A DNA stretch of 40,870 bases from a virus (lineage: Duplodnaviria; Caudoviricetes). How positions within the stretch are numbered: position 1 is the first letter of the stretch; each line of letters opens with the position of its first letter. The stretch covers positions 1-40,870 of IMG/VR virus record IMGVR_UViG_3300038393_000751; one strand, written 5' to 3'. Below the pieces are notes generated by a model. That model did no database searches, had not been told where the DNA came from, and was given only the letters and a program-made list of their open reading frames with translations. The position numbers and the translations under genes are program-made. Of this stretch, positions 25,301 through 36,014 are shown one piece after another.

Positions 25301-26449
25301 AAAACCGCACTCCGGACATGGCTTACATCAACGGTATTCATCGGCGGACTATCTGCTCTCATGTATGCCATGATGGGCCAGAACGAAGACGATAAGAAAG
25401 TTCTGGAAGACCTTCCGAGCACAACCCGGGATAAATACTGGGTATTCCCGAACGGTGCGGCTCCAGGAACTTACATCTACGTCAAAAAGCCGTATGAATA
25501 TGCCATTGCCGTGAATTACGCTGAACGCTTCGCGGATCAAATGTATTTTAAAAACAAAGTCTCGCGGAAATGGAATTCGGACCTTCGAGATCCACTTCCA
25601 AGCACCAGCTGGATGAGTCCATGGCTGCAAGCGTTGCGGGAGATTGAAAAAAATACAAACTCACTCGGCGGACCGATCATCCCGAGATCGGACGAAAACA
25701 AATTCCCGGCTGCACAGTATGGCCCCACAACCTCCGTTACAGCCCGGGAAGCTGCAAACCTTTATGCGCAGCTGGTCGGGGACGAAAACGGCATCAGCCC
25801 GAGGGTGATTGATTACTACATTAAGCAAACCACCGGACAATGGGGAGGCGGAGCGCTGGCCGGGGCAGACATGGCATTTAAGCTCGCGCAAACGGGTGAA
25901 TTGAAGTACGGGAAGGATATTTCCGGAGTGGAATACTCTCCTATACTGGGCTCCCTTGTGTACGGCAAAGCGGAAGGCTCCAGCCGAGTCGTGGATAAGT
26001 TTTATTCGGACCTCCAGACTACACAGAACCTTTACGCTACGCTTCAGAAGTATGCGAAGGAAAAGGATATTTCCAAATTGAGCGAATACGCTACTCCGGA
26101 GAATATCCAAAAACTGAAAATGCTGCCTGCCATGGAGTCCTTATCGAAGAACATGAGCGACCTCCGAAACGCTTATGGGGAAATCGAGGGGAAAGATGTA
26201 GACCCGATCAAAGCAGCCAGGTTGAATGCGGTTCAAGACTATTTGGAGAAGTATTTAGCTGGACTTCCATACGGATTCGAGCCTGCATATAACGAAAAGG
26301 CCGAAATCAGCCCAGCCCAGCTGGAGAACATGCGGCAAGCTTTTATGGCCGATGCGCAAAAGAAACTGGATAATGAGCTCAAGCATCCAGGAGGCGTCAC
26401 AGATGCCGCTGAACTCCTGCTAAAGTTGTACCAAAGGAAGCAGAAATAA
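13319..26449 (+). CDS. 4376-aa polyvalent DarB-like protein: zincin + N6-adenine methyltransferase + SNF2-like SF2 helicase + zincin + LPD38-like C-terminus
   Basis: HEAGH (~17201); NAHYT, VLEPSMGVG, IGNVPF (~18200-18490); AHAVGAGKT (~20303), DEAH (~20805), ATGTP, GAGMNVQ, QREGR; HELGH..EEGFAE (~23111); RDKYW..KKPYE..GGPIIP..ISPRVIDY. Confidence 0.9.
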   Translation: MPFDANGKYTPPGGWLSENRKKQKQEDEARTQQPNPDRLVERGDSPLSQLLTDYAYPDGTPAGPQYIQTNYATPDGTPAGPPFIQTNYSAPDGTPAGPPAPPQQPFQAPEWFNQSQANTDFTQPNRSSLSQMLDQLQTTAPTTTAPQPQPPSFFDRVGQGLVNTAKDAYNTISNDVSGLAQNALDYKHSLDQQFQNTLQSKAQEIKNDAQSVWDGAQKVGGILNRPFAFAAASMVPAAPIIENGQPVPGTDARAEWLQKYPLQSTGSETADKVLDSIGGMLGLFTPMGETNAPAMAQQAAHGLMEGTRVGQAAKNLYGDAAESAANFINNKFVPNNQIMDATNLVNQKLGPISADLARQAGENLATGTVAGMMFGAESPFITEGGDVSQLPQSIIDNGMMFGLGEAAAPFVGAGISKFASWGNQSLKQALFTGLSRAAEMQRGRVDVINPGESPSMNPRRNVMDAEVVNPDDMKFTLPSGADFETAVTSSVINKMDDQTRAQFNDFADESRAQGMSQEDATRVAMNELAKHPEGHQAIVDAVHEQIQSSQLGEQSKAPVDVEGVTGQTAEAFNPTHTGKPGSTRSGQDFMITPNGDGTVSFTNQDGTHQGSMGERSLNDNFDTKPTTPKKYANTDDLQSIRDAFETGKFKTLDDWKAQATPSQLEAYNTEPDFVHTLWNKFGNGTPDLPTPDQLSNMSRQELLSLKLQAFFSGDNKELTPEQIERNNQITDLVTSEINRRDGKTASDLQFPDIPEEQPQSQVPADAAVGDTVTLHGMNDQFTITSMNGKMITAKSSKGGELTVSKKAISGVVSGGEQAAAPEQPAETVDQMRSRLSGLVQQRNQIAGKPEHVQESNRLLHEIDALRKEIGNKLPTIREKVQEKERFEGNHPNWSDQVTSNIREFKPGDRVKTFHGVNPEEGHSVGTVSHIGWDGMVGIKYDSDAHPNLKNRMVNHGVHAVHYAEEGETSKVLDQKQLRDLKKQKEIETKGEKVSSSDDNSKPVTNHVSIQDGTVKVQARTKNLNHELLPRGFDAKSLTGMSYSFKLDDYIQAQKSGSGNVHYAAKKFTEKQFDYQGMLEKHEYAPMVDRIVDSQISAIEKAAEKLGVETPKAEDRKPKQPQPKAIYANENSLADEVGQWMKENYDKRFYEENPVVFREIAGMIEDYRSGKFDELAENGVLQQAGNNPFYAKPFEHFTGVKLPSESSEKELRSLLDASKKSPQSSETFAEQTIQVKDIPDIKVKVFHNAEDFNQEYRKYESEHAEGTGELEPKGFAHRKSNTVFLPPGYKDYVLHHEAGHLIYYHKKIKDVEQLTNDVRDKFFEWIEASNKVRPKAWSAYENMPNGPKKENIRKYLHDPSELFADAHAFYKTNKDAETLTPKTFAYFDSMYPSAADEPKQEADHPKAEERLSEQETHNNNDVQETKKEDATNGEQTDSLGAPSKETLGGTQAEDVPGTASEGAAGESSVRSPRADEGNAGGTDSEPGDELPGSVGSDSGNVAVPSGREDSSEPGNESSDLGSTGAGRELNTQGGNYVITEKDDLGLKGKKTSYKDNVRAIKLMKEIMAEGRQATAEEQAELVKYVGWGGIAEPFSPSWQVPQDWKAEYNELKELLTPDEWQLAADTILNAHYTSKEVIAAMYDGAAHLGFDGGRVLEPSMGVGHFLGLMPKELAKSSRITGIEIDNITGNIGKLLYPKSDIRVMGFEDAKLGNDMYDMAIGNVPFGKYGIVDMAYKNTGMLSAIHNYFFAKALDKVRPGGIVMFITSRYTMDARESGVRKYISNKADLIGAIRLPNTAFKKNAGTSVVTDILVLQKRAEGVPARDTSWIETRSMDFSGADYDVNSYFHDNPQMVLGTFDATGSMYRGGELTVNPKEGVNLQDAISQALKALPENIITPREKKATEEAQPREIVPAPGHIKENAFVVHNDSIYQKIEDQLVPVDVPGATVDRIKGMIGIRDAVREYLRLQLTEAPDSAINAARKHLNKVYDAFVKKFNPLNNPTNIKAFADDPDAYLLLSLEHYDKDTKTAKKAAIFSERTVQMYKPAESAGTSKEALVISLNERGRIDLGRMMALTGKSQGEIIQDLDGMIYNDPQGGWVTEDAYLSGNVKEKLVAAQNAAELDPAFQKNVDALMKVQPPDLQKEEIDVKLGSHWVDKDYITQFAANLLRERPSSFEVGYNNLIAEWHFKPKDNAKYIRNGTAATIQFGTNDYDAIDLIEMTLNMKTATVRRTIKHPDGSSTSYVDQKATVAAREKQNAIKEEFQKWIWSDEKRANELVRLYNDRFNTDRLRQYNGEHLTFPGMNPGITLKPHQKDAVWRAMQSGNTLFAHAVGAGKTFEMIASMMELKRTGVINKPMWVVPNHLVEQMGSDFMKLYPAANILVAGNKDFEKEKRKKLFAKIATGNYDAVIVPHSSFGKISMSKDTVEKFYQDQLDQLELAMEQEVKEGSRKETGLAKKLRAARKRLQEKMQKQLSKIEKDDNVSFEELGVDSLVVDEAHEFKNLFYTTKLSRVAGLGNQEGSGKAFDLFMKTRYLQQLNGGKGVIFATGTPVSNSLAEMYTFQRYLQYNELEKRGIVNFDSWVSQFGEIKNVLELSPEGKGLRMRSRLTEVVNLPELLHLFRSFADVKTADELLAKKLITRPDMKDGKRNMVVSPPSEALLNLVEELAARAEAVRSGKVKPDEDNMLAIVGEGRKAALDMRLVDPSAPDSPDSKVNVAAAHIAEIYKKTKKFKTASGKTIDNGTQIVFLDLSTPKGEKMDKDGNTVVDDSVDAADISVYNDLRKKLIKNGVAAKDIAFIHDYPKDAQKEELFRKVNSGEIRILLGSTAKMGAGMNVQKRLTDLHHLDVPWRPSDVEQREGRILRQGNENEEVGIHAYITEKSFDAYMWQIIANKAKVVDQTMSGDLTSRRVVDPSGMEMSANEIKAAATGDERIITLANLDRDVAELELKYQSRVDTLRQLRWDAEQTPRQIKGYQNELAAAQSDLASRKDMKGENFTLELGKKSFKEREEAGQALIDLNKKTVMDHEEMKTIGSFGGFPVIVQGYKYLSDKVARNEYYLKGKQAYYPFSVTDTAAGTARSLEAALGRIDGRVKELGDKITHEQSELEKIQEQLVTQEQEAAGLREKYNEKLSAKLALEAELNLDGKADEIGAEGSDEGDDSGDDEGTPPRKSGKSYAMPSAAAAKKPRNTVKTRIQGLADSIQETDRVLTPRAAEKVADLIAEHLGTAIQKDYVQPRAEGTYTPSQGVGEVRGRSFSEWRTVGHELGHAFSDKLARIGDKEELRAMADALYPGGTKNMDVATQMEEGFAEFFRQWVADPDLAAQNAPKTTKLFENFIESDKKLKNVFSRVRTLVDNDFMNDELGRAVAGSIVHDVTDDGEAYGGQMYSVPAWRKLEFNVLDSTVPARALDAKVGKDLNDISLEKLMVIGAESSSMAEAYFNSIPRDKNGAFVGEKSLKDIFQSGVNLIGEKIQWKALKLDGVEEKQYKRMNAKDIFSAVAIAERINERYERGFRKLPMTPESAAKILEIADQRFPGLRDIINDYAETLSNAILDISVNEGIITPEVRAIVKAGSSHYIPLITDSKKANLLTGKSKSGRSYKSTVSRFKGEVAPVLDVYQATMMKLNELAKSVQYKRVLDQLSEYARVQDKSIGLFVKKIPQPVEASTFDAAAAAEKLGKMMGLDMAEIQDMADLVQGQDMTLFTPKGIGSINPNDPIIMNRYKGNIEYLRVAPDLYRMLTSLSSVQMNGVMQFLAKLSKLPRFTGLATARFMTNAVAVDITTALTQSKNPLSMMTTGTLESIKTMLGAYGHKLGIDTKWTQEAEAILDAFKASGGAAGSAESMIRTAAATSFKDDVVQMNAPGWGYATLRTGKRIVVRLINTPHDALRFIEEGPRLAEWITDVKKGMKEIRPDLSSRELFKTFINEGTDKLPVELQSEMERILVNAAYQSGEVTLPLGRRGASPVVRTWTASVPFMRGSLNGATKAAKMMFGKKTALRTWLTSTVFIGGLSALMYAMMGQNEDDKKVLEDLPSTTRDKYWVFPNGAAPGTYIYVKKPYEYAIAVNYAERFADQMYFKNKVSRKWNSDLRDPLPSTSWMSPWLQALREIEKNTNSLGGPIIPRSDENKFPAAQYGPTTSVTAREAANLYAQLVGDENGISPRVIDYYIKQTTGQWGGGALAGADMAFKLAQTGELKYGKDISGVEYSPILGSLVYGKAEGSSRVVDKFYSDLQTTQNLYATLQKYAKEKDISKLSEYATPENIQKLKMLPAMESLSKNMSDLRNAYGEIEGKDVDPIKAARLNAVQDYLEKYLAGLPYGFEPAYNEKAEISPAQLENMRQAFMADAQKKLDNELKHPGGVTDAAELLLKLYQRKQK
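13478..13613 (+). repeat. three 45-bp coding repeats (Y..PDGTPAGP)
   Basis: YAYPDGTPAGPQYIQTN / YATPDGTPAGPPFIQTN / YSAPDGTPAGP. Confidence 0.85.
17610..17903 (+). CDS. 97-aa helical protein nested in the +1 frame of the giant gene, TnpV-like
   Basis: AAGGAGG 17594-17600, 9-nt spacer, ATG 17610. WG..AK.HW.EHRPKMY.EL...GQL...L reads as a globular protein, while the host frame here is a low-complexity linker. Confidence 0.75.
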   Translation: MASRLTAWGLQAKKHWAEHRPKMYRELQAKGQLEKALYAAQELTKETLAELIANQGMSYQEAWEAIREMWLFLPDEKTVPSLGTSPATWEAPEQDES

Positions 26450-26536
26450 GGTACAATGTGGGTAGGCATCAAGACGAGCTCCTTCAAGGAGCCTTTACCA
26501 CGGATTTATTCCGGGGTGGGGGCTCCTTTTTCTTTT
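26448..26536 (+). promoter_or_regulatory. intergenic element B (homologue of A): -10-like box, palindrome, terminator hairpin
   Basis: TACAAT 26452-26457; GCTCCTT-C-AAGGAGC 26478-26492; stem AAGGAGCCTTTACC-A-CGGA..TCCG-G-GGTGGGGGCTCCTT followed by TTTCTTTT. Confidence 0.7.
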
Positions 26537-26563
26537 GGACCTTCAGGGAAAGGAGGAATGTGA

Positions 26564-26980
26564 GTGGAAAGACTGGAAAAATACATTAACGGTGCGACCG
26601 CGGTGATTGGGGCGGTTGTTGGGTACCTGTTCGGAGGGTGGACGTTGTTGCTGCAAGTTGTTATTGCCTTGACCGTGGCGGACTATATTACGGGCCTTGC
26701 CGCGGGATACGTAGAAGGCACCTTGAGCTCCAAGACCGGCTTCCGTGGGGGTGTCAAAAAGGCGCTTATCTTTGTGATAATTGCCGTAGCTCATATGGTG
26801 GATCGGCTCATCGGGGAAGGGAACACCGTCATGACGGCAGCTTGTTTTTTCTACATTTCAAACGAGCTTTTATCCATCCTAGAGAACTGCACAAGAGCGG
26901 GCCTGCCGACTCCGGAAATCCTCAAGAAAGCACTCTTGATCTTGAAAGACAAAGGTGGGAATGGCAATGACGCTCAGTAA
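26564..26980 (+). CDS. phage holin (holin_4_1 / toxin-secretion holin family)
   Basis: GYLFGGW, DYITG, LSS..GFRG..KK, NE.LSILEN..R.GLP.P motifs; RBS AAAGGAGG. Confidence 0.92.
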   Translation: MERLEKYINGATAVIGAVVGYLFGGWTLLLQVVIALTVADYITGLAAGYVEGTLSSKTGFRGGVKKALIFVIIAVAHMVDRLIGEGNTVMTAACFFYISNELLSILENCTRAGLPTPEILKKALLILKDKGGNGNDAQ

Positions 26981-27584
26981 AGATGATTGGTGGGAGAAGG
27001 CAAAAGAGGCCAGTGCTATCATTTCCTGGTTCCCTACGGTCATTCTCTGTCAATGGCAGCTGGAAACGGGCAATTTCAAATCCGCGAACCTTCTGAACAA
27101 CAACAACATTGCGGGCCAAACCTGGCAACCGTACATGGGCGAAGCTATGAAGGGGACGGCGCGGCCAGCAAATGAGGGCGGGTATTATATCCGGTATGCC
27201 GATCCGGTTGACGGGTATGTGGACTTTATCCAAAAGAATCCCCGTTACTCCCATGTGAAAGACGCCTCTACCGAGGAAGATCAAATTCGGGCTATTGCGG
27301 CGGCGGGCTGGGCAGCAGACCTGGAGTATGCCGATAAGCTCATCGACATCCTGAACGGGAACAAAGCACAGGGCTACGTCCTGGAAGTAAAGGAGGATGA
27401 CACCTTGGAACTCTTGGAATGGGAATGGAAGCAGCTCGGGGATTCGCTGCACGGTCTATATCAAAAGGGCCTCATCAGCGACTATAACTGGGCGGATAAA
27501 GCCTACGAGATGAAACTGACGCTAAGTGAGCTGGCCTATCTGAACATGGTCATTTTGGCTCGGCAAAACGGAGTCGAAGCGTAA
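26967..27584 (+). CDS. endolysin with glucosaminidase/lysozyme-like (GH73-like) domain and C-terminal helical domain
   Basis: VIL.QW.LETG, NN.AG, AGWAAD..YADKL pattern; follows the holin; start moved to ATG 26967 on RBS spacing. Confidence 0.8.
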   Translation: MTLSKDDWWEKAKEASAIISWFPTVILCQWQLETGNFKSANLLNNNNIAGQTWQPYMGEAMKGTARPANEGGYYIRYADPVDGYVDFIQKNPRYSHVKDASTEEDQIRAIAAAGWAADLEYADKLIDILNGNKAQGYVLEVKEDDTLELLEWEWKQLGDSLHGLYQKGLISDYNWADKAYEMKLTLSELAYLNMVILARQNGVEA

Positions 27585-27598
27585 AGGGGGTGAACACC

Positions 27599-27646
27599 TT
27601 GGCGAAAAAAGGCGGCATGAAATCAGGCGGCGGCAAAAAGTGTTAG
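27599..27646 (+). CDS. 15-aa basic micropeptide MAKKGGMKSGGGKKC
   Basis: Strong RBS AAGGGGGTGA, TTG start, stop just before a terminator. Confidence 0.5.
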   Translation: MAKKGGMKSGGGKKC

Positions 27647-27655
27647 GCAAATAGC

Positions 27656-27696
27656 AAAAAGAGCCTCGGGGAACTCCCTAGGGCTCTTTTTCTTTT
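27656..27696 (+). terminator. intrinsic terminator ending the late/lysis operon, probably bidirectional
   Basis: AAAAAGAGCC..GGCTCTTTTTCTTTT. Confidence 0.85.
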
Positions 27697-27722
27697 CTGG
27701 CGAAGGTTTTATACGATTATAT

Positions 27723-27765
27723 AAAAAATACCCATATCCTGCAAGTGGGTGCAGTATGGGTATTT
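27723..27765 (-). terminator. hairpin with U-tract on the minus strand
   Basis: AAATACCCATA..CTGCA / TGCAG-TATGGGTATTT with an A-run at 27723-27728. Confidence 0.65.
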
Positions 27766-27774
27766 GCTCTAAAG

Positions 27775-27804
27775 AGCTTATGCGGGCGGGCAGGCAAAAT
27801 ATGC
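27775..27804 (-). promoter_or_regulatory. possible sporulation-sigma (SigE/SigG-type) promoter
   Basis: Minus strand GCATATT-N15-CATAAGCT. Confidence 0.4.
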
Positions 27805-27815
27805 AAGTCCGGTTT

Positions 27816-27911
27816 TTAATTTGTAAATAAATAAAACAGCACGATGAAAATCGGGAGCCCGAAGAAAAACAAAAGCAAAATTAACCCGTCTTCGGCATCG
27901 TGGTCATGCAT
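27816..27911 (-). CDS. 31-aa single-TM hydrophobic peptide MHDHDAEDGLILLLFFFGLPIFIVLFYLFTN
   Basis: Start overlaps the upstream stop (ATGCATGA); weak RBS; strongly hydrophobic. Confidence 0.45.
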   Translation of the reverse strand: MHDHDAEDGLILLLFFFGLPIFIVLFYLFTN

Positions 27912-28188
27912 TCTTTTTGATTGGCCCGCATTTCGGGCATTTCATGGGCGATTTGGTCCCAGCGAGTGTTAGGGGCTCCCCGTGGCAGAAATCGCAAACA
28001 GGGGCAATCTCCGGCTTCTCCGGGGCATTTACAACCGTTACCTTACGGATCGGGCGAATGCCGAACTCATAACTCTCCGTCTCAAACCAAAATCTCCCGT
28101 CTCGGGCCATGCGGTCCAGCTTGTATATCCACATCATGCAAAACGCTCCGATCACAACCCCGGCATATAAGACAGCCCAATAAAACAT
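27904..28188 (-). CDS. 94-aa membrane-anchored protein with C-terminal Zn-ribbon
   Basis: GGAGG RBS before ATG 28188; N-terminal TM segment; CDFC...CPKC. Confidence 0.7.
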   Translation of the reverse strand: MFYWAVLYAGVVIGAFCMMWIYKLDRMARDGRFWFETESYEFGIRPIRKVTVVNAPEKPEIAPVCDFCHGEPLTLAGTKSPMKCPKCGPIKKNA

Positions 28189-28290
28189 TTTTCGATCCTC
28201 CGACAAATTTCTGGAATAAAATGCACGGTTTTTATATATCCATATAACAACCGTAAGCAAACGGTATAAAACTTTGGAGGCGATTCACCC

Positions 28291-28446
28291 ATGACTACTC
28301 AGCAAATCGTATTGGAGCTTCTGAAAGCACACAGCCAAGGCGTAAACGTGTTTCTCACGGCAGAAGGTTTGGAAAAACTCTCCCAAGCGACACAAGCGAA
28401 CCCGGACGTGATTGACGAAGCGGAGCGTGTGGCCCGTGAAGCTTGA
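28291..28446 (+). CDS. 51-aa hypothetical protein (not in ORF track)
   Basis: GGAGG 28276-28280; MTTQQIVLELLKAHSQGVNVFLTAEGLEKLSQATQANPDVIDEAERVAREA; overlaps the next start. Confidence 0.65.
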   Translation: MTTQQIVLELLKAHSQGVNVFLTAEGLEKLSQATQANPDVIDEAERVAREA

Positions 28447-28636
28447 GAAATGCCCTGTTTGTGAGAAACTTTGTACTCCGGGCAGCTGCGGCTGCCCTGT
28501 TCGTGTCAATAAGCCGGTAGCGTTCAACCTTGAAGACCCGTATGAGGCGAAGCTGTACCGACACCTCAAGAAGCAGGGACCCTTTTCCAAGTACGTGAAG
28601 CGCCTCATTGATCGAGATATGTCTAGTGCAACATGA
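28436..28636 (+). CDS. ribbon-helix-helix protein with N-terminal Cys cluster
   Basis: KPVAFNLEDPYE..LY.H....FSKYVKRLI.RDM; CPVC..C..CGC; GTG start behind GGAG. Confidence 0.7.
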   Translation: MKLEKCPVCEKLCTPGSCGCPVRVNKPVAFNLEDPYEAKLYRHLKKQGPFSKYVKRLIDRDMSSAT

Positions 28637-28770
28637 AATAGGATACCGTAACCATGGCCGCGCCAATTACAACGGGTACGAGTGCAATCATTCCGGATCA
28701 ACTCCTTTGAGTGTGGGATTCTACAACGTAGGATGTCCGGGAAAAATCAATTTTAAACGGAGGAATCAAA

Positions 28771-29169
28771 ATGATCGTTAGAATGAATGGGAAAACCATC
28801 CTGAACACGGTTTCAAAGTCCGCTGTGCTCCCGATCGAGACAAAAGCAGAAGTTTCCAGGGTGCAAGCGCTGTTCTCCAGCGGCATCCCTTCCATGGCTA
28901 TGGCCGCAGCTGCCAAAGTCGGGTTGATCGAGAAAATGGACCCGTTATATCGCTTCATGGCCGAAGTTATCGGAGCCCTCGGTACGTTCGCCATTATGGG
29001 CGGGATCATCGTTTATGTGTTTCGGCGCAGAACTGGAACTAAAATTCTTACAGTTTCCACATTCGCCATTCTCGCCGCTACCCTGGTTCCGTCGATCGTG
29101 CTGCTGCTGATTATCATCGGGAAATACCTGAACGACACGATGGAAACAGTCCTGCGGGATATGAATTAA
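28771..29169 (+). CDS. membrane protein, VirB2/TrbC pilin-like topology
   Basis: GGAGG RBS; leader ending AMAAA, then two hydrophobic segments separated by RRRTG. Confidence 0.6.
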   Translation: MIVRMNGKTILNTVSKSAVLPIETKAEVSRVQALFSSGIPSMAMAAAAKVGLIEKMDPLYRFMAEVIGALGTFAIMGGIIVYVFRRRTGTKILTVSTFAILAATLVPSIVLLLIIIGKYLNDTMETVLRDMN

Positions 29170-29182
29170 GGAGGGGTTCCCC

Positions 29183-29323
29183 TTGAGATTTTTGATCGGA
29201 ACCGCTTTCGGCGGAATCCTGGGCTGGGCCGCTGCGCTCTACGTGAATGTGAAAATGCCAAGCAGCCCGCCTGTGAAAATCGTTGGATTCATCAAATACC
29301 TGGTAACGGAGTTGAGCAAATGA
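29183..29323 (+). CDS. 46-aa membrane peptide (not in ORF track)
   Basis: AAGGAGGGG RBS, TTG start; MRFLIGTAFGGILGWAAALYV...; ATGA overlap with the ATPase. Confidence 0.7.
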   Translation: MRFLIGTAFGGILGWAAALYVNVKMPSSPPVKIVGFIKYLVTELSK

Positions 29324-31539
29324 TAGCCCCTTATTTCACGGATAACAAATACCGGATCACGGTGAAAATCGGAAACATTTCAGACGAAAAAATATTGGAA
29401 GTCGAAGCTCCCGCGCCAAAGCCTGCACCTAAAGCGGAAGTGTTCGAGACTCCGGGTTTTGTCACGTTCCGGACCATCCCGCACAATACCCTGGAGAACA
29501 AGAAAAACGATAACTTTGCCGATGTGCTGGCCGACTCCTACCAAAATTTGTTCACAGCTTGGCGAGCGGGAATGCTCGGGAACCGGGAACGGATTTTCTT
29601 CGAATCCGTCATGAGTACCCAATCTTACGAAACGTTTGTATCTTCAAGCCAAAGCGCAGCGGATATGACGCGGCAGCAGCTCAATATGACTTGGAAGAAC
29701 CTGAATGTGCTGGATGATACGCGGGCCTATATGAAGTATTTCACGGACCCCGGCAAGGTATCTGCTTATGAAATGAAGCTGCGGTATCACTTTTTCTTGA
29801 GTCTAAAGACGGACCGGAAAATGACCGAGGCCCCGCTCCCGGAGATTCTGGAGCTATCCCGCTTTATGTCCGGGGATGATCGGGCCGTCATTCAGTTCGG
29901 CTTCCAATCAGCAGAGGAAGAATGGGTGAAGGAGGCAGCGGCGGAGGAAAAGAACTTCGCTAAGAAGCGCCCGCGGGAGTGGAAAAACCGGGAAGTCGGT
30001 ACGGCTACGCAAATGAAACAGATGCATCCCGGCTATGATTTCGTGCTGCGGATCGCTGTTTATTCCCAGGATGAGCGCAGGCGCAGACGGATCGCCCGAG
30101 GCATATCCATAGCCCTCAAGCAGCTGAACGGGGATAACGAGCTCTTGGAAAGTGAAATCGGGAAAATACGGATCGACAGATGGTTGGAAGGATTCCGCTC
30201 GCTCAAGCTGGATGTGCCTTTCCTCTACTCGAAACGAAATATTATCACCGCTCCCGAGGCAGGCCGGTTCCTTAATTTCCCGCAGCGCAGCTTGCAGGAG
30301 GAATACCCGATCATCAAGGCGATTGACACGAAGGAAACCAACATTGACCCCGAGCTGCAAAAAGGCGGCTGGTTGCTGGGTGAAGCGGAATTCCAGGGCA
30401 AAAAATACCCGATCAGCATTCGGGCCGATGAAAAATATTGGGGGAATTTGTGCCTGCCATCGGTAGCCATCGGCGGGATGGACCAAGGAAAGACCAAAGG
30501 TTTTGGAGCCAATGCACTGGTTCAAGCGGTAAAAATGGGATTTGGAGGCATGGCGATTGATCCAGCCAAAGGCGAGCTCGGGGATGAAGTGGAGCGCTGC
30601 CTGCGTCCGGATCAGGTGGAGCGGTATAACCTGGCTAACATCGTATTTGGCTTAGATTGGAACGAAGTGAAACACGCCAAGAACGGCGGGAAGGATATGC
30701 TGGTGGATACCGTGCTTGCCTTTTTCGAAGACAACACAGACCAAACCGGAGCCCAAACCGCCCGATTCCTGGAAGCTGCCGTACACGGGATGCAGACGGG
30801 GAGGCTATCGGAAATTGTGCGCATCTGCACAGAGAAAAAATATCTCAAAGAGTGCTACAGCAAAATGCCGATGACCATTCACCGGACCACGCTAAAAGAG
30901 CTGCACGACTACCAGGACGCACGAAGGGCCCAAATCGTCGCTCCGATCCTCAATCGCTTAAACATCGTTCTGGGGGACTCCTGGATGCTCAAATGCATGG
31001 AATCACGAAACAGCATTGATATGGTGGAGCTGCTGCAAAAGCGTAAGGCCATTATTTTTGACGTGGCAAAGAAAGACGGACTTAGCCCGCGCAAAATTGA
31101 CCTCATCGTAAACCTACTCACAACGAAGATTGCGCTCGCTATGCAGCTGAGGCCCGAGAAGAACCAATTTCCATTTTTCATTATTTATGATGAGCCGCAT
31201 CAATTTCTCCGATCCACAAAGCTGTGGGAATTCCTGGCCGTAGAGTCCCGGAAATGGCGGGTGAAATTCGTTTGGATGTTCCATGAATGGGATCAGCTCC
31301 CGGCGAAAACGCAAAAACATATCAAAGCCGCGCTGCCTCATTACCACATTTACCCTTCGGCCAAGAGCATATTTAAGGACTTGAAGGAAGAAATTGACCC
31401 GTTCACGGTAGAAGAAGCCATGAAGCTGAAGAAATACCATGCCATCAACGTGCTTCGGACGAAGAATGGCGTAGCCCAGGCGCTTATTGTACGGATGACC
31501 GCGCCACCCAGCGAACAGAAAAAGGAGGGAGCAGCATGA
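29320..31539 (+). CDS. P-loop ATPase of the VirB4/VirD4/HerA-FtsK superfamily
   Basis: Walker A GGMDQGKT, IDPAKGE, Walker B FIIYDEPHQF, ESRKW arginine-finger-like motif. Confidence 0.8.
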   Translation: MIAPYFTDNKYRITVKIGNISDEKILEVEAPAPKPAPKAEVFETPGFVTFRTIPHNTLENKKNDNFADVLADSYQNLFTAWRAGMLGNRERIFFESVMSTQSYETFVSSSQSAADMTRQQLNMTWKNLNVLDDTRAYMKYFTDPGKVSAYEMKLRYHFFLSLKTDRKMTEAPLPEILELSRFMSGDDRAVIQFGFQSAEEEWVKEAAAEEKNFAKKRPREWKNREVGTATQMKQMHPGYDFVLRIAVYSQDERRRRRIARGISIALKQLNGDNELLESEIGKIRIDRWLEGFRSLKLDVPFLYSKRNIITAPEAGRFLNFPQRSLQEEYPIIKAIDTKETNIDPELQKGGWLLGEAEFQGKKYPISIRADEKYWGNLCLPSVAIGGMDQGKTKGFGANALVQAVKMGFGGMAIDPAKGELGDEVERCLRPDQVERYNLANIVFGLDWNEVKHAKNGGKDMLVDTVLAFFEDNTDQTGAQTARFLEAAVHGMQTGRLSEIVRICTEKKYLKECYSKMPMTIHRTTLKELHDYQDARRAQIVAPILNRLNIVLGDSWMLKCMESRNSIDMVELLQKRKAIIFDVAKKDGLSPRKIDLIVNLLTTKIALAMQLRPEKNQFPFFIIYDEPHQFLRSTKLWEFLAVESRKWRVKFVWMFHEWDQLPAKTQKHIKAALPHYHIYPSAKSIFKDLKEEIDPFTVEEAMKLKKYHAINVLRTKNGVAQALIVRMTAPPSEQKKEGAA

Positions 31540-31640
31540 AAACAAAATGGTGGGAAGAACTGATATGGTGGGGACTCGGGCTCGCTATGGCCCCGGCGTT
31601 TGTGCGGATCGCATCGGAACTATCAACTGCATTGAAATGA
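31536..31640 (+). CDS. 34-aa membrane peptide (not in ORF track)
   Basis: AAAGGAGGG RBS; ATGA overlap; MKTKWWEELIWWGLGLAMAPAFVRIASELSTALK. Confidence 0.65.
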   Translation: MKTKWWEELIWWGLGLAMAPAFVRIASELSTALK

Positions 31641-31686
31641 AAAAGAAGCCCCACTCCTTGACGAAGGGAGGGGGCTTTTCCTTTTT
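31640..31686. terminator. bidirectional intrinsic terminator
   Basis: AAAAAGAAGCCCCACTCCTT-gacga-AGGGAGGGGGCTTTTCCTTTTT, with U-tracts on both strands. Confidence 0.85.
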
Positions 31687-32052
31687 GACAGGAATTAAGA
31701 AGTTACCGCGAAAAGCAGGCCAAGCAAGTAGGTGCGATAAACAGCGGAAATTTGGAAGAATGACCGACTATCCATCGAAAAACCGAGAGAGATAACCCGC
31801 CCTCTCAATACATCCCGGGTGGCCTTCCGGGAATGTAAGCGGGATCGCCTCAAAACAACTCACATACGTTACCCTACGGAATGAACAACGCGAACCAGCT
31901 GAATACAGGGAAGGGGTTGCCAGCTGACAGCAGAGTTTATAGGAAGCACTTTTAAGACCGGACTACCAACAGCAGGGACCTTCCGGACGGTCCAAGTTGA
32001 TAATCTATTTCTCGCAGCTTTCGGTCTGGGTTGTCCGTGCGATTCATTCGTT
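31640..32052 (-). ncRNA. candidate ~400-nt structured RNA
   Basis: SigA-type promoter upstream and terminator downstream; no RBS-led ORF; nested helices with G-U pairs that work only on the minus strand. Confidence 0.55.
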
Positions 32053-32057
32053 TTAAT

Positions 32058-32086
32058 ATTGTAACATTTGGTAAAACCCTTGGGAA
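32058..32086 (-). promoter_or_regulatory. SigA-type promoter (leftward)
   Basis: TTCCCA-N17-TACAAT with extended TG. Confidence 0.65.
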
Positions 32087-32121
32087 GTGCTTATGCTAAT
32101 GTTGTATACCGTATATATTAG

Positions 32122-32155
32122 TTGCATTCCGCATAAAATAGTGCTATATTTATGC
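32122..32155 (+). promoter_or_regulatory. SigA-type promoter (rightward) with overlapping operator-like palindrome
   Basis: TTGCAT-N17-TATATT with TG; GCATAAAATAG-TG-CTATATTTATGC 32131-32155. Confidence 0.7.
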
Positions 32156-32182
32156 AGTAGCCACAAAAGGAAGGTGGTAGAA

Positions 32183-32413
32183 ATGAACAGCACTTTGGAG
32201 AGAATTGCGAAGTGTCGGCGCATCCTGGGGTGGACCCAGCAGCAGCTTAGTGAGCGAACGGGGATACACCAAACGCGAATCAGCCGCTTCGAGCTCGGAA
32301 AGTCCATCCCAAGGCCCGAGGAACTTATGGCCTTATCCAAGGTTCTCGGCGTGTCGATGGAAAGTCTTGTTGATCCGACGAAGGAATGCGTCATGTCACT
32401 CAAAATTGAATAA
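32183..32413 (+). CDS. XRE-family HTH regulator (Cro-like)
   Basis: R...GWTQQQLS..TGI....ISRFE.G...P....L..LSKVLGVS...LV; RBS AAGGAAGGTGG before ATG 32183. Confidence 0.9.
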   Translation: MNSTLERIAKCRRILGWTQQQLSERTGIHQTRISRFELGKSIPRPEELMALSKVLGVSMESLVDPTKECVMSLKIE

Positions 32414-32427
32414 GGAGGGCAATGGGA

Positions 32428-32748
32428 ATGCCAATGGACAAAACAATTGATTATTTTGCAGAAAAGCTGGCCCCGCGGATCGTGGAACGCATCATGATGG
32501 AACCGAGCAAGTATGTGAGCGGGCTTACGGGAACCGCAGCGAAGCTCATCATGGAAACTGAGCTTTACCGGCTGACTCATTTTTACCCGGACCCGGAGCG
32601 GGACCGCATCTATGAGGCTATGGCCCAGCATCCGGAAATCAAACTCGCGTTCGACTTAGCTAACGATCTACTCCAAGAATTCGCAGAATCGCGCATCCGT
32701 GCTATCGAGAACCCGCGGGACTACCATTCAAGAGTCGATTTTATCTAA
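32428..32748 (+). CDS. hypothetical protein
   Basis: AAGGAGGG RBS; operon position. Confidence 0.7.
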   Translation: MPMDKTIDYFAEKLAPRIVERIMMEPSKYVSGLTGTAAKLIMETELYRLTHFYPDPERDRIYEAMAQHPEIKLAFDLANDLLQEFAESRIRAIENPRDYHSRVDFI

Positions 32749-32764
32749 GGGAGGAAAAAGGACA

Positions 32765-33097
32765 ATGGAAAACCAAGTGAAGCGGATTGAACTAACACCG
32801 GAAGTTGTAAATGGATTCTTGGAGTGGCAAAAAGGCGGGAAGCAGCGCAGAGTTGAAATCAAGGTGGAAGGCTGGGATACAGTCTACCGCATTAACGGAG
32901 AACGAGTAACTGAACCCACCGAATCAAATTACCGTGTGATTGTAAGTGATACGATTGAGGGGATTTACTGCTGTCAAGTGAGCCTTTATTACGCTTCGGA
33001 AATTGACTTGATCAAGGAAGCAAAACGAACGATGCAATCCCGCATTGATGAGCTCGAAAAGCTTCAACGATTGGAGGCTGCAAACGATGGTCGTTAA
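32765..33097 (+). CDS. hypothetical protein
   Basis: GGGAGG RBS; MENQVK start; overlaps the next gene. Confidence 0.7.
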   Translation: MENQVKRIELTPEVVNGFLEWQKGGKQRRVEIKVEGWDTVYRINGERVTEPTESNYRVIVSDTIEGIYCCQVSLYYASEIDLIKEAKRTMQSRIDELEKLQRLEAANDGR

Positions 33098-34019
33098 AGT
33101 CAATGCAAGCAATTTCACGGAATTCCTGGCCCAGTACGAATCACTTACGGTCGTACATACCAAGGACCTCCCCCGGACGGATTGGCTCACCTGGCGGAAG
33201 AAAGGGCTCGGGGGATCAGAAATAGCGGCCATCCTCGGGAAAAGCCCGTATGAGTCGGCGTTGGCGGTTTACCTCGGCAAGCTGGACCTCATCCCGCCCA
33301 AGGAAGAAAACGATGCTATGCACTTCGGGAATTTGCTCGAACCGGTTGTCGCGGGTGAGTTTGAGCGCCGATCCGGATTCACCGCTTATGAGCTGCACCG
33401 CATGGTGCGGCATCCAATTTATGATTTCATGGTTGCTAACGTGGACCGCATCATATACGACGATGTACTTGGTTGGGGCATCCTGGAGTGCAAAACTGCT
33501 TCGACGTACAAAGAGCAGGATTGGCTCTATGATAAAACCCCGGAGCACTATTATTATCAAGTCCAGTTTTATCTTGCGGTTACGGGGCTCCAGTTCGCCT
33601 ATATCGCTTGCCTCATCGGAGGGCAAAAGTTCGTTTATAACTTTATCGCCAGGGACGAGACAGCAATTGAGCAAATCCTGGAAGGAGCAACCGACTTTTG
33701 GTTCAACCATTTGCTGGAGAAAGTCCCGCCCGATGTAAGCCACCTGGACACAGACGCACTCGGCAGGCTGTACCCGAAGCATGAGGAAGGCAAAACGCTC
33801 AATATCACGGAGGAAGAAGCCTGGATATGGGATGACTTAATTCTCGCTCGGAAGGCCCTTTCCGGGGCGGAGAAAGCGGAAGCGGAAGCGTCGAACCGAA
33901 TTAAGGCCCGAATGGGGGATGCGGAAATCCTCTACCTGGGCGGAGAGAAAATTGCCACCTGGAAGACGAATGCCAAGGGCTCCCGCGTATTTAAGCCGAA
34001 TTTACCCAAGGAGGAATAG
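33087..34019 (+). CDS. YqaJ-like viral recombinase/exonuclease
   Basis: WL..RKKGLGGSE.AAILG.SPY, G..LEP, ANVDR, LECKT, YY.QVQ.Y..VTG. Confidence 0.92.
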   Translation: MVVKVNASNFTEFLAQYESLTVVHTKDLPRTDWLTWRKKGLGGSEIAAILGKSPYESALAVYLGKLDLIPPKEENDAMHFGNLLEPVVAGEFERRSGFTAYELHRMVRHPIYDFMVANVDRIIYDDVLGWGILECKTASTYKEQDWLYDKTPEHYYYQVQFYLAVTGLQFAYIACLIGGQKFVYNFIARDETAIEQILEGATDFWFNHLLEKVPPDVSHLDTDALGRLYPKHEEGKTLNITEEEAWIWDDLILARKALSGAEKAEAEASNRIKARMGDAEILYLGGEKIATWKTNAKGSRVFKPNLPKEE

Positions 34020-34024
34020 ACAAC

Positions 34025-34801
34025 ATGGAAACTCAATTCGATATTCAACCCGTATATCAAAAGGGATGGACGGAGGAGCGTAAGCTCCTTCTCAAGCTGG
34101 TGGCTATTTACAAAGTCGTGAAGTACATCCAGAAGCGCGGGAAAAATAAGTTTCACAATTACAGCTACGCCACCGAAGCGGACGTGAACGAAAAAGTCCG
34201 GGAGGAACTGGCCGAGCGTAACGTTATTCTCATCCCGAACCTAATTAACCATTCCATGCGGGAAACCACAACCCGCAGCGGGAACACGGAGTATATCTGC
34301 TGCGTGATTATGCAGTTCACTTTCATGGACGCCGAAACGGGAGAACAGCTTACGATCGGCATGAGGGGCGAAGGCCAGGACGTTGGCGATAAGGCGATTT
34401 TCAAGGCTATTTCCGGGTGCCAGAAGTACGCGCTGATGAAGCAGTTTATGATTCCGACCGGGGATGACCCGGAAGCGGATGAGGATGCAGACCGTCGAAA
34501 TGCGGGCGTGAGCGGATCGCAAAACCAGGGCGGGAGCAATGCCCCATCCGGGAACTCACAGCCTCCAGCGGGCAATTCTGGAGCTCCAGCAGCCAATCCG
34601 AACCTGGTTACGGACGGCCAGGTGAAGATGCTCAACGCGAAGGCTGGGAGCGCAGGCTACAAGAAGACGGATAAAGACCAGCTCATGAAGGACATCGGCC
34701 AGCTCATCGGCGCAACCATTTCCAGCTTCTCGGAAGTCCAGAAGAAGGATGTTAACAAGATTGCGGAATGGCTGGATCAGAAAGCCGCGCAGCCTGCCTA
34801 A
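34025..34801 (+). CDS. ERF-family single-strand annealing protein
   Basis: K.GKN.F.NYSYA, GEGQD.GDKA..KA.S...KYAL...F.IPTGDDP. Confidence 0.88.
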   Translation: METQFDIQPVYQKGWTEERKLLLKLVAIYKVVKYIQKRGKNKFHNYSYATEADVNEKVREELAERNVILIPNLINHSMRETTTRSGNTEYICCVIMQFTFMDAETGEQLTIGMRGEGQDVGDKAIFKAISGCQKYALMKQFMIPTGDDPEADEDADRRNAGVSGSQNQGGSNAPSGNSQPPAGNSGAPAANPNLVTDGQVKMLNAKAGSAGYKKTDKDQLMKDIGQLIGATISSFSEVQKKDVNKIAEWLDQKAAQPA

Positions 34802-34802
34802 T

Positions 34803-34820
34803 AGCCGCCTTCGGGCGGCT
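34803..34820 (+). other. GC-rich hairpin with C(UUCG)G tetraloop (weak terminator or stabiliser)
   Basis: AGCCGCC-TTCG-GGCGGCT; poor U-tract. Confidence 0.55.
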
Positions 34821-34861
34821 CTATCCTTGTTATGCATCAAAATGAAATAGGTGGTGTACAT

Positions 34862-35047
34862 GTGGGAACTAAAATTATCGAGACTCCAGACAGTAAGATG
34901 GTATGTGATTCTTGCGATTATGACATGATCAAACCGACTTACGCAAAGTATCAAATCAGGTTTTCTGGCGGGGTTCGTTTGTGCGTTTGCTTTAGCTGTT
35001 TTGATACCTTATACGATGCTCTAATGAAACACAAAGAATCAAAATGA
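34862..35047 (+). CDS. small Cys-rich (Zn-finger-like) protein
   Basis: AGGTGG RBS, GTG start; CDSC...CFSC. Confidence 0.6.
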   Translation: MGTKIIETPDSKMVCDSCDYDMIKPTYAKYQIRFSGGVRLCVCFSCFDTLYDALMKHKESK

Positions 35048-35066
35048 ATAAAGGGGTGTGTATGGA

Positions 35067-35216
35067 ATGGATTGGCGTTGTAGTGGTTGCGGTTCAACTA
35101 AACCAGAAACGTGTATATGTGAAAATGACTTTGAACTAACGGACGCGGAAGAAATTCCTGTTCCAAAACCAAATTCAATAGATTACGTCAAAGTGCGTCT
35201 CGAAGAAACAAAATGA
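35067..35216 (+). CDS. 49-aa Cys-containing protein (not in ORF track)
   Basis: AAGGGGTG RBS; MDWRCSGCGSTKPETCICE... Confidence 0.55.
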   Translation: MDWRCSGCGSTKPETCICENDFELTDAEEIPVPKPNSIDYVKVRLEETK

Positions 35217-35243
35217 ATACTGAAGCACTTGGGAGGGCTTTCA

Positions 35244-35552
35244 ATGGAATGGATTAGCGTTGACGAACGGCTTCCGGAAACAAGGCAAAGGGTGCTGGTG
35301 TGCTTCACAAATTCCTATGGTAAGACATGGGTTACATGCGCCGATTACATCGCGCCAAAGACCGTTCTCGAAGAAGATTATATGGATGAGCAATATACAG
35401 ACGGAGGCGAGTACGACGAAGAAAAAGACTGCTACTGGACGACGAGCGGTTGGTACGAAAATAATTACGAGCCAGAAACAAACTGGAAACTAAGCGACAA
35501 AGTTACGCATTGGATGCCTTTGCCACAGGTTCCGGTTATGAACACCGTTTGA
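35244..35552 (+). CDS. DUF551-family protein
   Basis: MEWISVDERLP ... VTHWMPLP. Confidence 0.85.
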   Translation: MEWISVDERLPETRQRVLVCFTNSYGKTWVTCADYIAPKTVLEEDYMDEQYTDGGEYDEEKDCYWTTSGWYENNYEPETNWKLSDKVTHWMPLPQVPVMNTV

Positions 35553-35579
35553 ATATCGAGGAACATGGGAGGGTTTAGT

Positions 35580-35705
35580 ATGGACAAAAAACTGTACGAC
35601 ATTATCTGCGATTGGATTCAAATGTTAGATGACGGCGAGATAGCAGCGGTAATTGATGAGATGAAAGATGAGTTAGAAACTTACCGTAGAGAGAACCGGA
35701 AATAA
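35580..35705 (+). CDS. 41-aa hypothetical protein
   Basis: GGGAGGG RBS; MDKKLYDIICDWIQMLDDGE... Confidence 0.6.
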   Translation: MDKKLYDIICDWIQMLDDGEIAAVIDEMKDELETYRRENRK

Positions 35706-35746
35706 GTAACCAAGCTGAATATTGAAGGACATAAGGAGGTTTACAG

Positions 35747-35842
35747 ATGCAAGAGGCGTTATATGGAGCGGCAACAATCGGATTTGTTGCTGGTATTGCC
35801 TTAACATTGTTCGCAATGTGGTTTTTATCTAAAAGACGATGA
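35747..35842 (+). CDS. 31-aa single-TM peptide
   Basis: AAGGAGG RBS; MQEALYGAATIGFVAGIALTLFAMWFLSKRR. Confidence 0.65.
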   Translation: MQEALYGAATIGFVAGIALTLFAMWFLSKRR

Positions 35843-35882
35843 ACATTCGTGAATATTTAGTTACCTGGGGAGGATTGGACCA

Positions 35883-36014
35883 ATGACGAAGATTGCTACA
35901 TGCGCGAATGAACATTGCTGCTCCCCAATCTATGCAGGCGATAAAGCCTGGAGGATGTTTGGGCAGCTGTATTGCAATATTCGGTGTGCTTTGAAAAACT
36001 TGCGGAAGGGGTGA
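35883..36014 (+). CDS. 43-aa Cys-rich (Zn-finger-like) protein
   Basis: GGGGAGG RBS; C....CC.PIY.GD.......LYC...C. Confidence 0.6.
   Translation: MTKIATCANEHCCSPIYAGDKAWRMFGQLYCNIRCALKNLRKG

What the first reader, a model, noticed from the sequence alone, without database searches (positions are those of the whole stretch)
31640..32086. Candidate ~400-nt structured RNA in the cI position
Seen: a leftward TTCCCA-N17-TACAAT promoter with TG, about 410 nt with no RBS-led ORF, then a terminator. Nested helices in + coordinates: 31879-31885/32043-32049; 31955-31960/32022-32027; 31961-31970/31996-32005 (10 bp with two G-U pairs valid only on the minus strand); 31976-31980/31989-31993; 31796-31800/31839-31843; 31809-31818/31827-31837. 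CCGGAAGG occurs at the tip of two separate hairpins. A CAGCUG stem presents the loop GCAACCCCUUCCCUGUAUU, an anti-Shine-Dalgarno-like seed complementary to e.g. GGAAGGGGT at 36004-36012 (short matches to RBSs can be chance). I do not recognise it as tmRNA, RNase P, 6S, T-box or intron. Established: RNA-based immunity exists (P4 CI RNA, P1 C4). Inference: a novel phage RNA for immunity, copy control or protein sequestration.
Basis: partly seen in the sequence, partly recalled or inferred. Interest (0 to 1): 0.8.

Follow-up and report, generated by a model that had tools for sequence, protein, structure and literature searches.

The report
Orphan phage RNA in repressor slot
A soil phage with no repressor or integrase gene in its known sequence carries, where temperate relatives keep those genes, a gene-free stretch of about 410 bases that is likely copied into a non-coding RNA and would pair with messenger RNAs, but no relative of it was found and its fold is only slightly better than chance.

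Summary
The parts are present: an extended -10 promoter facing left, a gene-free gap, a two-way terminator and the listed helices. The statistics are weak. The fold has z -1.5, or -0.5 without the terminator. The repeated 8-mer and the anti-Shine-Dalgarno match are at chance level.

No homologue turned up in Rfam, BLAST, four motif scans, about 100 syntenic loci or single-sequence covariance searches, so covariation is untested. This scan has not noted this sequence on other DNA.

The slot holds integrase and cI in temperate relatives. Eleven hand-picked relatives run from the ATPase to rightward early genes with ORF-free runs of only 92-255 nt, and one of them, TP-84, is listed as lytic. So nothing needs to replace cI.

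Best reading: an orphan accessory non-coding RNA of a probably lytic phage, made from the old cI promoter (about 50% that it is a real RNA). It would most likely pair through its C-rich loop. A deletion scar is the main rival; RNA-based immunity is about 10%.

The parts
32058..32086 (-). sigma-A-type leftward promoter motif with extended -10 (TG at 32066-32065); likely the position of the ancestral cI promoter
   Evidence: chance 9% in shuffles of the promoter region; cI faces left from the equivalent place in G001 and D6E
31640..32052 (-). predicted non-coding transcript of about 410 nt (start site inferred about 7 nt after the -10; not observed)
31875..32051 (-). predicted 5' domain: closing helix, one long arm and the C-rich stem-loop
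   Evidence: MFE and MEA folds
31961..32005 (-). best-defined hairpin: 10-bp helix with two G-U pairs plus 5-bp helix; 8-nt loop holding a 6-nt palindrome
   Evidence: pair probabilities 0.96-1.0; loop unpaired 0.99-1.0
31896..31926 (-). CAGCUG stem with C-rich loop (CCCCUUCCC core unpaired 0.6-0.97)
   Evidence: target pairing at chance level
31809..31837 (-). second hairpin; 8-nt loop holding the palindrome GGCC
31641..31686 (.). two-way intrinsic terminator shared with the convergent ATPase operon
31952..32047 (-). 31-codon ORF starting 4-5 nt after the predicted start site; no RBS, no family, not in the protein collection
31536..31640 (+). 34-aa hydrophobic peptide gene, start overlapping the ATPase stop, strong RBS; converges on the RNA
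   Evidence: called as a gene on 7 contigs; no family
29320..31539 (+). 739-aa P-loop ATPase (phrog_5156) that marks the left edge of the slot
32122..32155 (+). rightward early promoter motif (TTGCAT-17-TATATT, TG) overlapped by a 7-bp inverted repeat at 32131-32155, a likely operator
   Evidence: the operator role is inference
32183..32413 (+). 76-aa XRE/Cro-type HTH gene, the only HTH_3 match in the record; heads the early recombination-replication operon

Best explanation
The gap is likely an orphan accessory non-coding RNA gene of a probably lytic Bacillota phage: host RNA polymerase would transcribe it leftward from a promoter likely inherited from the lost cI gene to the shared terminator, and the RNA would pair with G-rich ribosome-binding regions through its predicted open C-rich loop. 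SHOWN: the promoter and terminator motifs, the lack of coding signal, the lack of integrase and cI in the record, and relatives without them. INFERRED: transcription (about 50% that it is a functional RNA), a lytic life style, the promoter's origin, and an accessory rather than immunity role (about 75% if the RNA is real). WEAKEST STEP: the pairing mechanism (about 45% if real and accessory). No target stands out in the phage, so any target would be a host mRNA.
For: Flanks face the right way and are spaced as one unit. The gap is 50% G+C, higher than 5 of 6 other gaps (34-51%), yet no frame looks coding: scores -0.04 to -0.22 against -0.01 to +0.30 for 19 genes. Six-frame read-through finds no PHROG or Pfam remnant at E<=10. 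Fold signal is mild and strand-specific: 56 pairs at p>0.9 on minus, 13 on plus, shuffles 22+-14; 8 helices of 10 bp or more against 3.3. Eleven hand-picked relatives without cI here keep ORF-free runs of 92-255 nt, against at least 387 nt in the window. The slot is an accessory site: small genes in PK2.1, TP-84 and BpsM-61, a tRNA cluster in L231. No serine or tyrosine integrase in the record, one HTH_3 gene. Single contigs bridge the junction (X1 27357-35243 and X5 21000-35875; both runs may be the source). TP-84 is listed as lytic with all CDSs in one direction (PMC10969951, passages). RoxS pairs through a CCCCU region (PMC5419742, passages).
Against: No homologue in any search, so no conservation or covariation. 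Global fold z is only -0.5 to -1.6. 12 of 31 minus-strand genome windows (the target's own among them) fold as stably, and 2 others have as many sure pairs. The promoter's -35 is poor, and similar minus-strand -10 matches lie in the early-promoter regions of PK2.1, TP-84 and BpsM-61. CCCCU occurs in 52% of shuffles and C-runs are not enriched. No phage target beyond chance. The record is 92% complete by CheckV, so an integrase or partition genes could lie in the missing part.
Confidence: 0.35

Rival explanations
1. Scar: the promoter and terminator are relics of a deleted integrase-cI module, and the DNA between them is neutral filler that may be transcribed without function.
For: Same slot and direction as integrase and cI in G001 and D6E. 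Orphan sequence. Fold, repeat and seed statistics lie near chance. The terminator is needed by the plus-strand operon anyway.
Against: No protein remnant (none against ORFs of related loci for the two in-frame short ORFs tested). No codon signal. Relatives without cI trimmed the gap to 92-255 nt. The fold is better defined on the promoter's strand.
Confidence: 0.27
2. RNA-based immunity or copy control: the phage persists as a plasmid-like prophage, its single HTH protein limits the early operon, and the RNA stands in for cI (like P4 CI RNA or P1 C4; both recalled, not from a call).
For: Slot and promoter direction match cI. No integrase or second HTH in the record. An operator-like palindrome overlaps the early promoter.
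Against: The RNA does not overlap the early transcript. Duplexes with the HTH and rep start regions are matched by 17% and 95% of 100 shuffles. Relatives without cI lack such a unit. No partition genes were recognised among the 32 ORFs scanned.
Confidence: 0.1
3. Large structured RNA that self-associates or binds a protein, like OLE, ROOL or GOLLD, using palindromic loops as kissing contacts.
For: Both well-formed loops hold palindromes (6-nt and GGCC); loop-loop duplexes are -10.3 and -8.9 kcal/mol. OLE and GOLLD use palindromic loop contacts, GGCC among them (PMC12286853, passages). A possible 10-bp long-range helix 32018-32009 / 31714-31705 has p about 0.16. A related slot holds tRNAs.
Against: Noticed after the fact: 4% and 25% of the region's 8-mers hold such palindromes. 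No Rfam match. No tRNA in the window. Weak global fold.
Confidence: 0.1
4. Short-leader mRNA for the 31-aa peptide (32047-31952), or for the 26-aa hydrophobic frame at 31775-31695.
For: The ATG lies 4-5 nt after the predicted start site. The 26-aa frame has a codon score of -0.03 against a null of -0.20+-0.15.
Against: No RBS. Neither is in the protein collection. No Pfam family. The 52-aa extension of the 26-aa frame has no homologue. About 300 nt would stay unexplained.
Confidence: 0.08
5. Type I toxin-antitoxin-like pair: the RNA is the convergent antitoxin of the 34-aa hydrophobic peptide.
For: Convergent layout with a shared two-way terminator, as in par/Fst (PMC7472228, passages).
Against: No PXXXG motif: the peptide has P-A-F-V-R. 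No Pfam hit. No significant repeat pairing with the peptide's start region (10% of 100 shuffles). The peptide is coupled to the ATPase stop and no promoter motif of its own was found. The par antitoxin is about 40 nt.
Confidence: 0.05

Closest known systems
C-rich-region sRNAs of Bacillota (RoxS/RsaE; PMC5419742, passages read)
   Same: A predicted unpaired CCCCU-containing loop that could pair with G-rich sequences; own promoter and terminator motifs.
   Different: No Rfam match; phage-borne; about 410 nt; one such loop against four C-rich regions in RoxS; no target shown. It may work like RoxS but is not a member.
Large phage and prophage RNAs ROOL, GOLLD and OLE (PMC12286853, passages read)
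   Same: Long protein-free unit in a Bacillota phage; palindromic hairpin loops.
   Different: No Rfam match; no tRNAs nearby; no covariation evidence; shorter than GOLLD (many over 800 nt); weak fold statistics.
Lambdoid immunity module of temperate relatives (D6E recombinase, repressor, cro; G001 serine integrase, AimR/AimP-like pair, cI, cro)
   Same: Same slot between the ATPase and the rightward HTH gene; same leftward direction.
   Different: No integrase, cI or aimR/aimP here, and no sequence likeness to the G001 region, including the stretch between aimP and cI.
cI-less Saundersvirus-type layout (TP-84, PK2.1, BpsM-61, 035JT001, PBC5)
   Same: ATPase followed by rightward early and recombination genes, with no integrase or leftward repressor annotated.
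   Different: Their slots hold small protein genes or short spacers, not a leftward protein-free unit. TP-84 and PK2.1 are siphoviruses, whereas this phage has an SU10-type adaptor and a DarB-like giant protein.
P4 CI RNA and P1 C4 antisense immunity RNAs (recalled, no call)
   Same: An RNA near a phage switch.
   Different: Those are short RNAs with complementary targets in the phage's own transcript; no such target is found here.
par/Fst type I toxin-antitoxin loci (PMC7472228, passages read)
   Same: Convergent units sharing a two-way terminator; a small hydrophobic peptide.
   Different: No PXXXG motif, no DRa/DRb-type pairing, peptide inside an operon, RNA ten times longer.

Membership tests
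Any Rfam 15 family (tmRNA, RNase P, SRP, 6S, T-box, introns, ROOL, GOLLD, OLE, raiA, RsaE) | covariance-model score at the gathering cut-off | tested here: not met
   0 matches over the window; best matches at E<=10 score 19.5-20.8 bits, below their cut-offs; 6S 0 at E<=10; ARAGORN 0
C-rich sRNAs (RoxS/RsaE type) | unpaired C-rich region | tested here: inconclusive
   predicted unpaired 0.6-0.97, but CCCCU occurs in 52% of shuffles
C-rich sRNAs (RoxS/RsaE type) | specific pairing with a G-rich target mRNA | tested here: not met
   phage start regions only: best duplex matched by 28% of shuffled loops; host targets could not be tested, host unknown
C-rich sRNAs (RoxS/RsaE type) | expressed as a discrete RNA | not testable with these tools
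   no RNA holder listed
Large ornate RNAs (ROOL, GOLLD, OLE) | extensive structure supported by covariation | not testable with these tools
   no homologue to align
Large ornate RNAs (ROOL, GOLLD, OLE) | often near tRNA islands | tested here: not met
   no tRNA in the window
Antisense immunity RNAs (P4 CI, P1 C4) | complementary target in the phage's own early transcript | tested here: not met
   BLAST against the window, best E 0.43; duplex tests on four start regions
Antisense immunity RNAs (P4 CI, P1 C4) | confers immunity in trans | not testable with these tools
   needs phage and host
Arbitrium (AimR-AimP-AimX) | aimR and aimP upstream of the RNA | tested here: not met
   AimR/AimP-like ORFs seen in G001 (identified by length, position and look, not by a family scan); no ORF of that kind in this slot
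par/Fst type I TA | convergent transcripts with a two-way terminator | tested here: met
   sequence layout; transcription not shown
par/Fst type I TA | PXXXG motif in the peptide | tested here: not met
par/Fst type I TA | direct repeats that pair the RNA with the toxin start region | tested here: not met
Repeat-built RNAs (type III antitoxin mimics, CRISPR-repeat mimics; recalled) | tandem repeats or a CRISPR repeat match | tested here: not met
   best internal repeat score 18, matched by 81% of 200 shuffles; no Rfam CRISPR repeat

The most novel reading that the evidence does not exclude
A Bacillota phage without integrase and cI persists as a plasmid-like prophage and uses a new 410-nt RNA, made from the old cI promoter and pairing with itself through palindromic loops, as its immunity or copy-control factor: an RNA that replaced a lambdoid repressor.
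Probability: 0.08. Interest if true: 0.8.

Novelty: new member of a known kind. Interest (0 to 1): 0.3.

Why it matters
If it is a real RNA, it adds an uncatalogued phage RNA in a slot that relatives fill with integrase and cI, an arbitrium-like pair, small genes or tRNAs. It would also show an old cI promoter reused for an RNA. If it replaced cI, it would be a new kind of switch in a Gram-positive phage. As it stands it is a single sequence with no covariation, no expression data and no known host, so it is a lead, not a discovery. Seven literature searches listed no paper on such an RNA.

Tried and rejected
HOMOLOGUE SEARCHES, ALL EMPTY.
- blastn in phages and plasmids at E<=1; the 6.6-kb region matched only the ATPase, in 9 records.
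- Four motif scans of viral contigs gave 0, 106, 38 and 12 loci; none extended by nhmmer, blastn or covariance model. In one search flanking DNA was fetched for 80 of 106.
- Whole-record or genome blastn: 0 of 45, 0 of 136, 0 of 61. Short 26-44-nt hits in 5 of 401, 2 of 401 and 1 of 5 genomes did not extend. These genome sets overlap.
- Single-sequence covariance models of the 5' and 3' halves: only the window among 94 sources; 0 of 42 records; 0 of 151 in each of three samples. Such models are weak, so this is not absence.
- Only 2 true relatives of the virion protein in viral contigs.
- Supplements of PMC10690425: motifs not found in 6 files; files 1, 2 and 4 were not searched and may bear on novelty.

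EXPRESSION. No RNA holder listed. All 11 holders are DNA runs, 6 of them possible sources. The laid contigs gave only two differences in the gap (31873; a one-base loss at 31941 at depth 3.9, whose tables were cut): too few for covariation.

IDEAS REJECTED. 6S, tmRNA, RNase P, SRP, T-box and intron likeness (resemblances recalled). A 45-50-nt degenerate repeat, not significant. CsrA-type GGA sponge (my count by eye is about what chance gives; no script). A CTG-started 46-codon plus frame at 31924-32064 (score -0.11). ESM Atlas hits of the 34-aa peptide were 0.83 or lower, leads only.

MY OWN FAULTY RUNS, DISREGARDED. The self-alignment used too-cheap gaps (redone). The HTH slice was out of frame (redone). 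The 31-codon slices were out of frame, so that ORF has no valid codon score or phmmer result.

Full report
CONTEXT. The window is a whole virus record of 40,870 nt, linear and 92% complete by CheckV. It encodes an SU10-type adaptor, a 4376-aa DarB-like protein, a glucosaminidase, a membrane protein with a 739-aa ATPase (phrog_5156), then an HTH gene, YqaJ, ERF, SSB, a replication initiator and DnaC. Relatives of the ATPase lie in Bacillus and Geobacillus phages and in Bacillaceae, Brevibacillus and Paenibacillus genomes, so the host is inferred to be a Bacillota species. The phage is close to a singleton: the best ATPase relatives are about 50% identical, and the gene after the HTH has no true relative. 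Eleven soil or rhizosphere DNA runs hold the region, six of them possible sources. Single contigs in two runs bridge ATPase, gap and HTH, so the junction is not an obvious misassembly.

THE OBSERVATION. The leftward motif TTCCCA-17-TACAAT with TG is at 32086-32058. It is moderately beyond chance: 9% of shuffles of the promoter region give an extended -10 on that strand. The terminator is real as a structure and works both ways. All listed helices are complementary, but only two are near certain; the others have probabilities of 0.2-0.7, and one needs a bulge. The whole fold is not clearly better than shuffles: z -1.5 with the terminator and -0.5 without. Finer measures give p of about 0.02-0.05: 56 sure pairs against 22+-14, with 13 on the plus strand, and 8 long helices against 3.3. 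Two of the other 30 genome windows do as well on sure pairs. The repeated CCGGAAGG, the C-rich seed and the C-runs are chance-level.

IS IT CODING? No minus-strand ORF has an RBS. On the plus strand the same permissive filter gave one frame, 31565/31685-31795, that crosses the terminator; its longest form is not in the protein collection. Codon scores of all six frames lie below those of all 19 genes scored. Six-frame read-through finds no PHROG or Pfam family at E<=10. The 31-codon ORF starts 4-5 nt after the predicted start site, so short-leader translation is not excluded; it has no family and was never called.

IS IT KNOWN OR CONSERVED? There is no Rfam, tRNA, tmRNA or 6S match. No homologue was found by blastn, motif scans, nhmmer over the ATPase-anchored loci or single-sequence covariance models; counts are in Tried and rejected. 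Covariation, the test that would settle structure, could not be run.

THE SLOT. Temperate relatives carry a recombinase and a leftward repressor here: D6E, and G001, the closest relative by virion protein (46%) and ATPase. G001 has a serine integrase, an AimR-like 415-aa ORF, an AimP-like 40-aa ORF, cI and cro (the Aim labels are my reading). So the leftward promoter sits where the cI promoter would be. A second group goes from the ATPase straight to rightward early genes. I picked 11 such loci by hand from about 100; four of them (L212, L217, L252, L259) are short contigs whose further content is unknown. Their longest ORF-free runs are 92-255 nt, against 387 nt here under the same filter, or 542 nt if the doubtful plus frame is ignored. 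TP-84, one of them, is listed as lytic with all genes in one direction (PMC10969951, passages). The window has no integrase of either type and one HTH_3 gene. The two best HTH matches among related loci are rightward genes of this second group, L217 and PK2.1. The simplest reading is a phage that lost lysogeny, in which nothing needs to replace cI. The slot takes accessory cargo, including a tRNA cluster in L231.

HOW IT MOST LIKELY WORKS. Host sigma-A polymerase would start near 32051 and stop near 31640, giving about 410 nt (inferred). A 7-bp inverted repeat overlaps the rightward -10, with one half-site just upstream of the leftward -35, so the HTH protein may control both promoters (inferred). 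The best-formed parts are two hairpins and a stem that presents an open C-rich loop (predicted). By analogy with RoxS, which pairs through a CCCCU region (PMC5419742, passages), the loop would bind G-rich translation starts, probably of host mRNAs, since no phage start region stands out. I put a functional RNA at about 50%, an accessory role at about 75% of that, and loop pairing at about 45% of that. Rivals: neutral scar 0.27, RNA immunity or copy control 0.10, self-associating large RNA 0.10 (palindromic loops as in OLE and GOLLD, PMC12286853, passages; noticed after the fact), peptide mRNA 0.08, type I antitoxin 0.05 (criteria from PMC7472228, passages; two of three not met).

LITERATURE AND EARLIER NOTES. 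Seven searches were seen as listings only, apart from the four papers read as passages and the supplement search of PMC10690425 (three files not searched). P4 CI RNA, P1 C4, type III antitoxin mimics and CRISPR-repeat mimics are recalled, not from a call. The scan's index showed no look-alike of this DNA or ATPase. It holds other phage RNA findings of similar layout, which I did not test.

VERDICT. Observation partly confirmed; interpretation partly supported. This is an orphan candidate RNA with suitable flanks and weak structure statistics, in a phage that probably needs no repressor. Interest 0.3.

Noticed in passing
L231:1995-2677: Directly after the related ATPase: a promoter-like site, four tRNA genes, a 200-nt non-tRNA insert between the first two (no Rfam match; fold z +0.44), and what looks like an IS200/IS605-type end (my recall).
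   Followed up: partly
L238:1-4140 (G001): The closest relative carries a serine integrase, an AimR-like 415-aa ORF, an AimP-like 40-aa ORF, cI and cro: an arbitrium-like module in a phage with this virion type. Not confirmed by a family scan.
   Followed up: partly
window 28771-31640: Membrane protein, small ORF, 739-aa ATPase and 34-aa peptide: a module common in Bacillota phages, both temperate and lytic. It has no Pfam or NCBIfam hit here, though some relatives carry PF26449. Function unclear.
   Followed up: partly
window 13319-26449: 4376-aa DarB-like polyvalent protein (methylase, SNF2 helicase, LPD38) whose DNA matches lie mostly in phages of Proteobacteria, unusual beside Bacillota-type early genes.
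   Followed up: no
window 27125-27386: Several runs hold two variants of the endolysin gene in this stretch, suggesting local allelic exchange.
   Followed up: no
window 27650-28290: A second long gap (641 nt, 46% G+C) after the lysis genes with only doubtful ORFs; not examined for RNA.
   Followed up: no
window 32087-32155: Operator-like inverted repeat over the early -10 and a lone half-site at 32090-32096 next to the leftward -35.
   Followed up: partly
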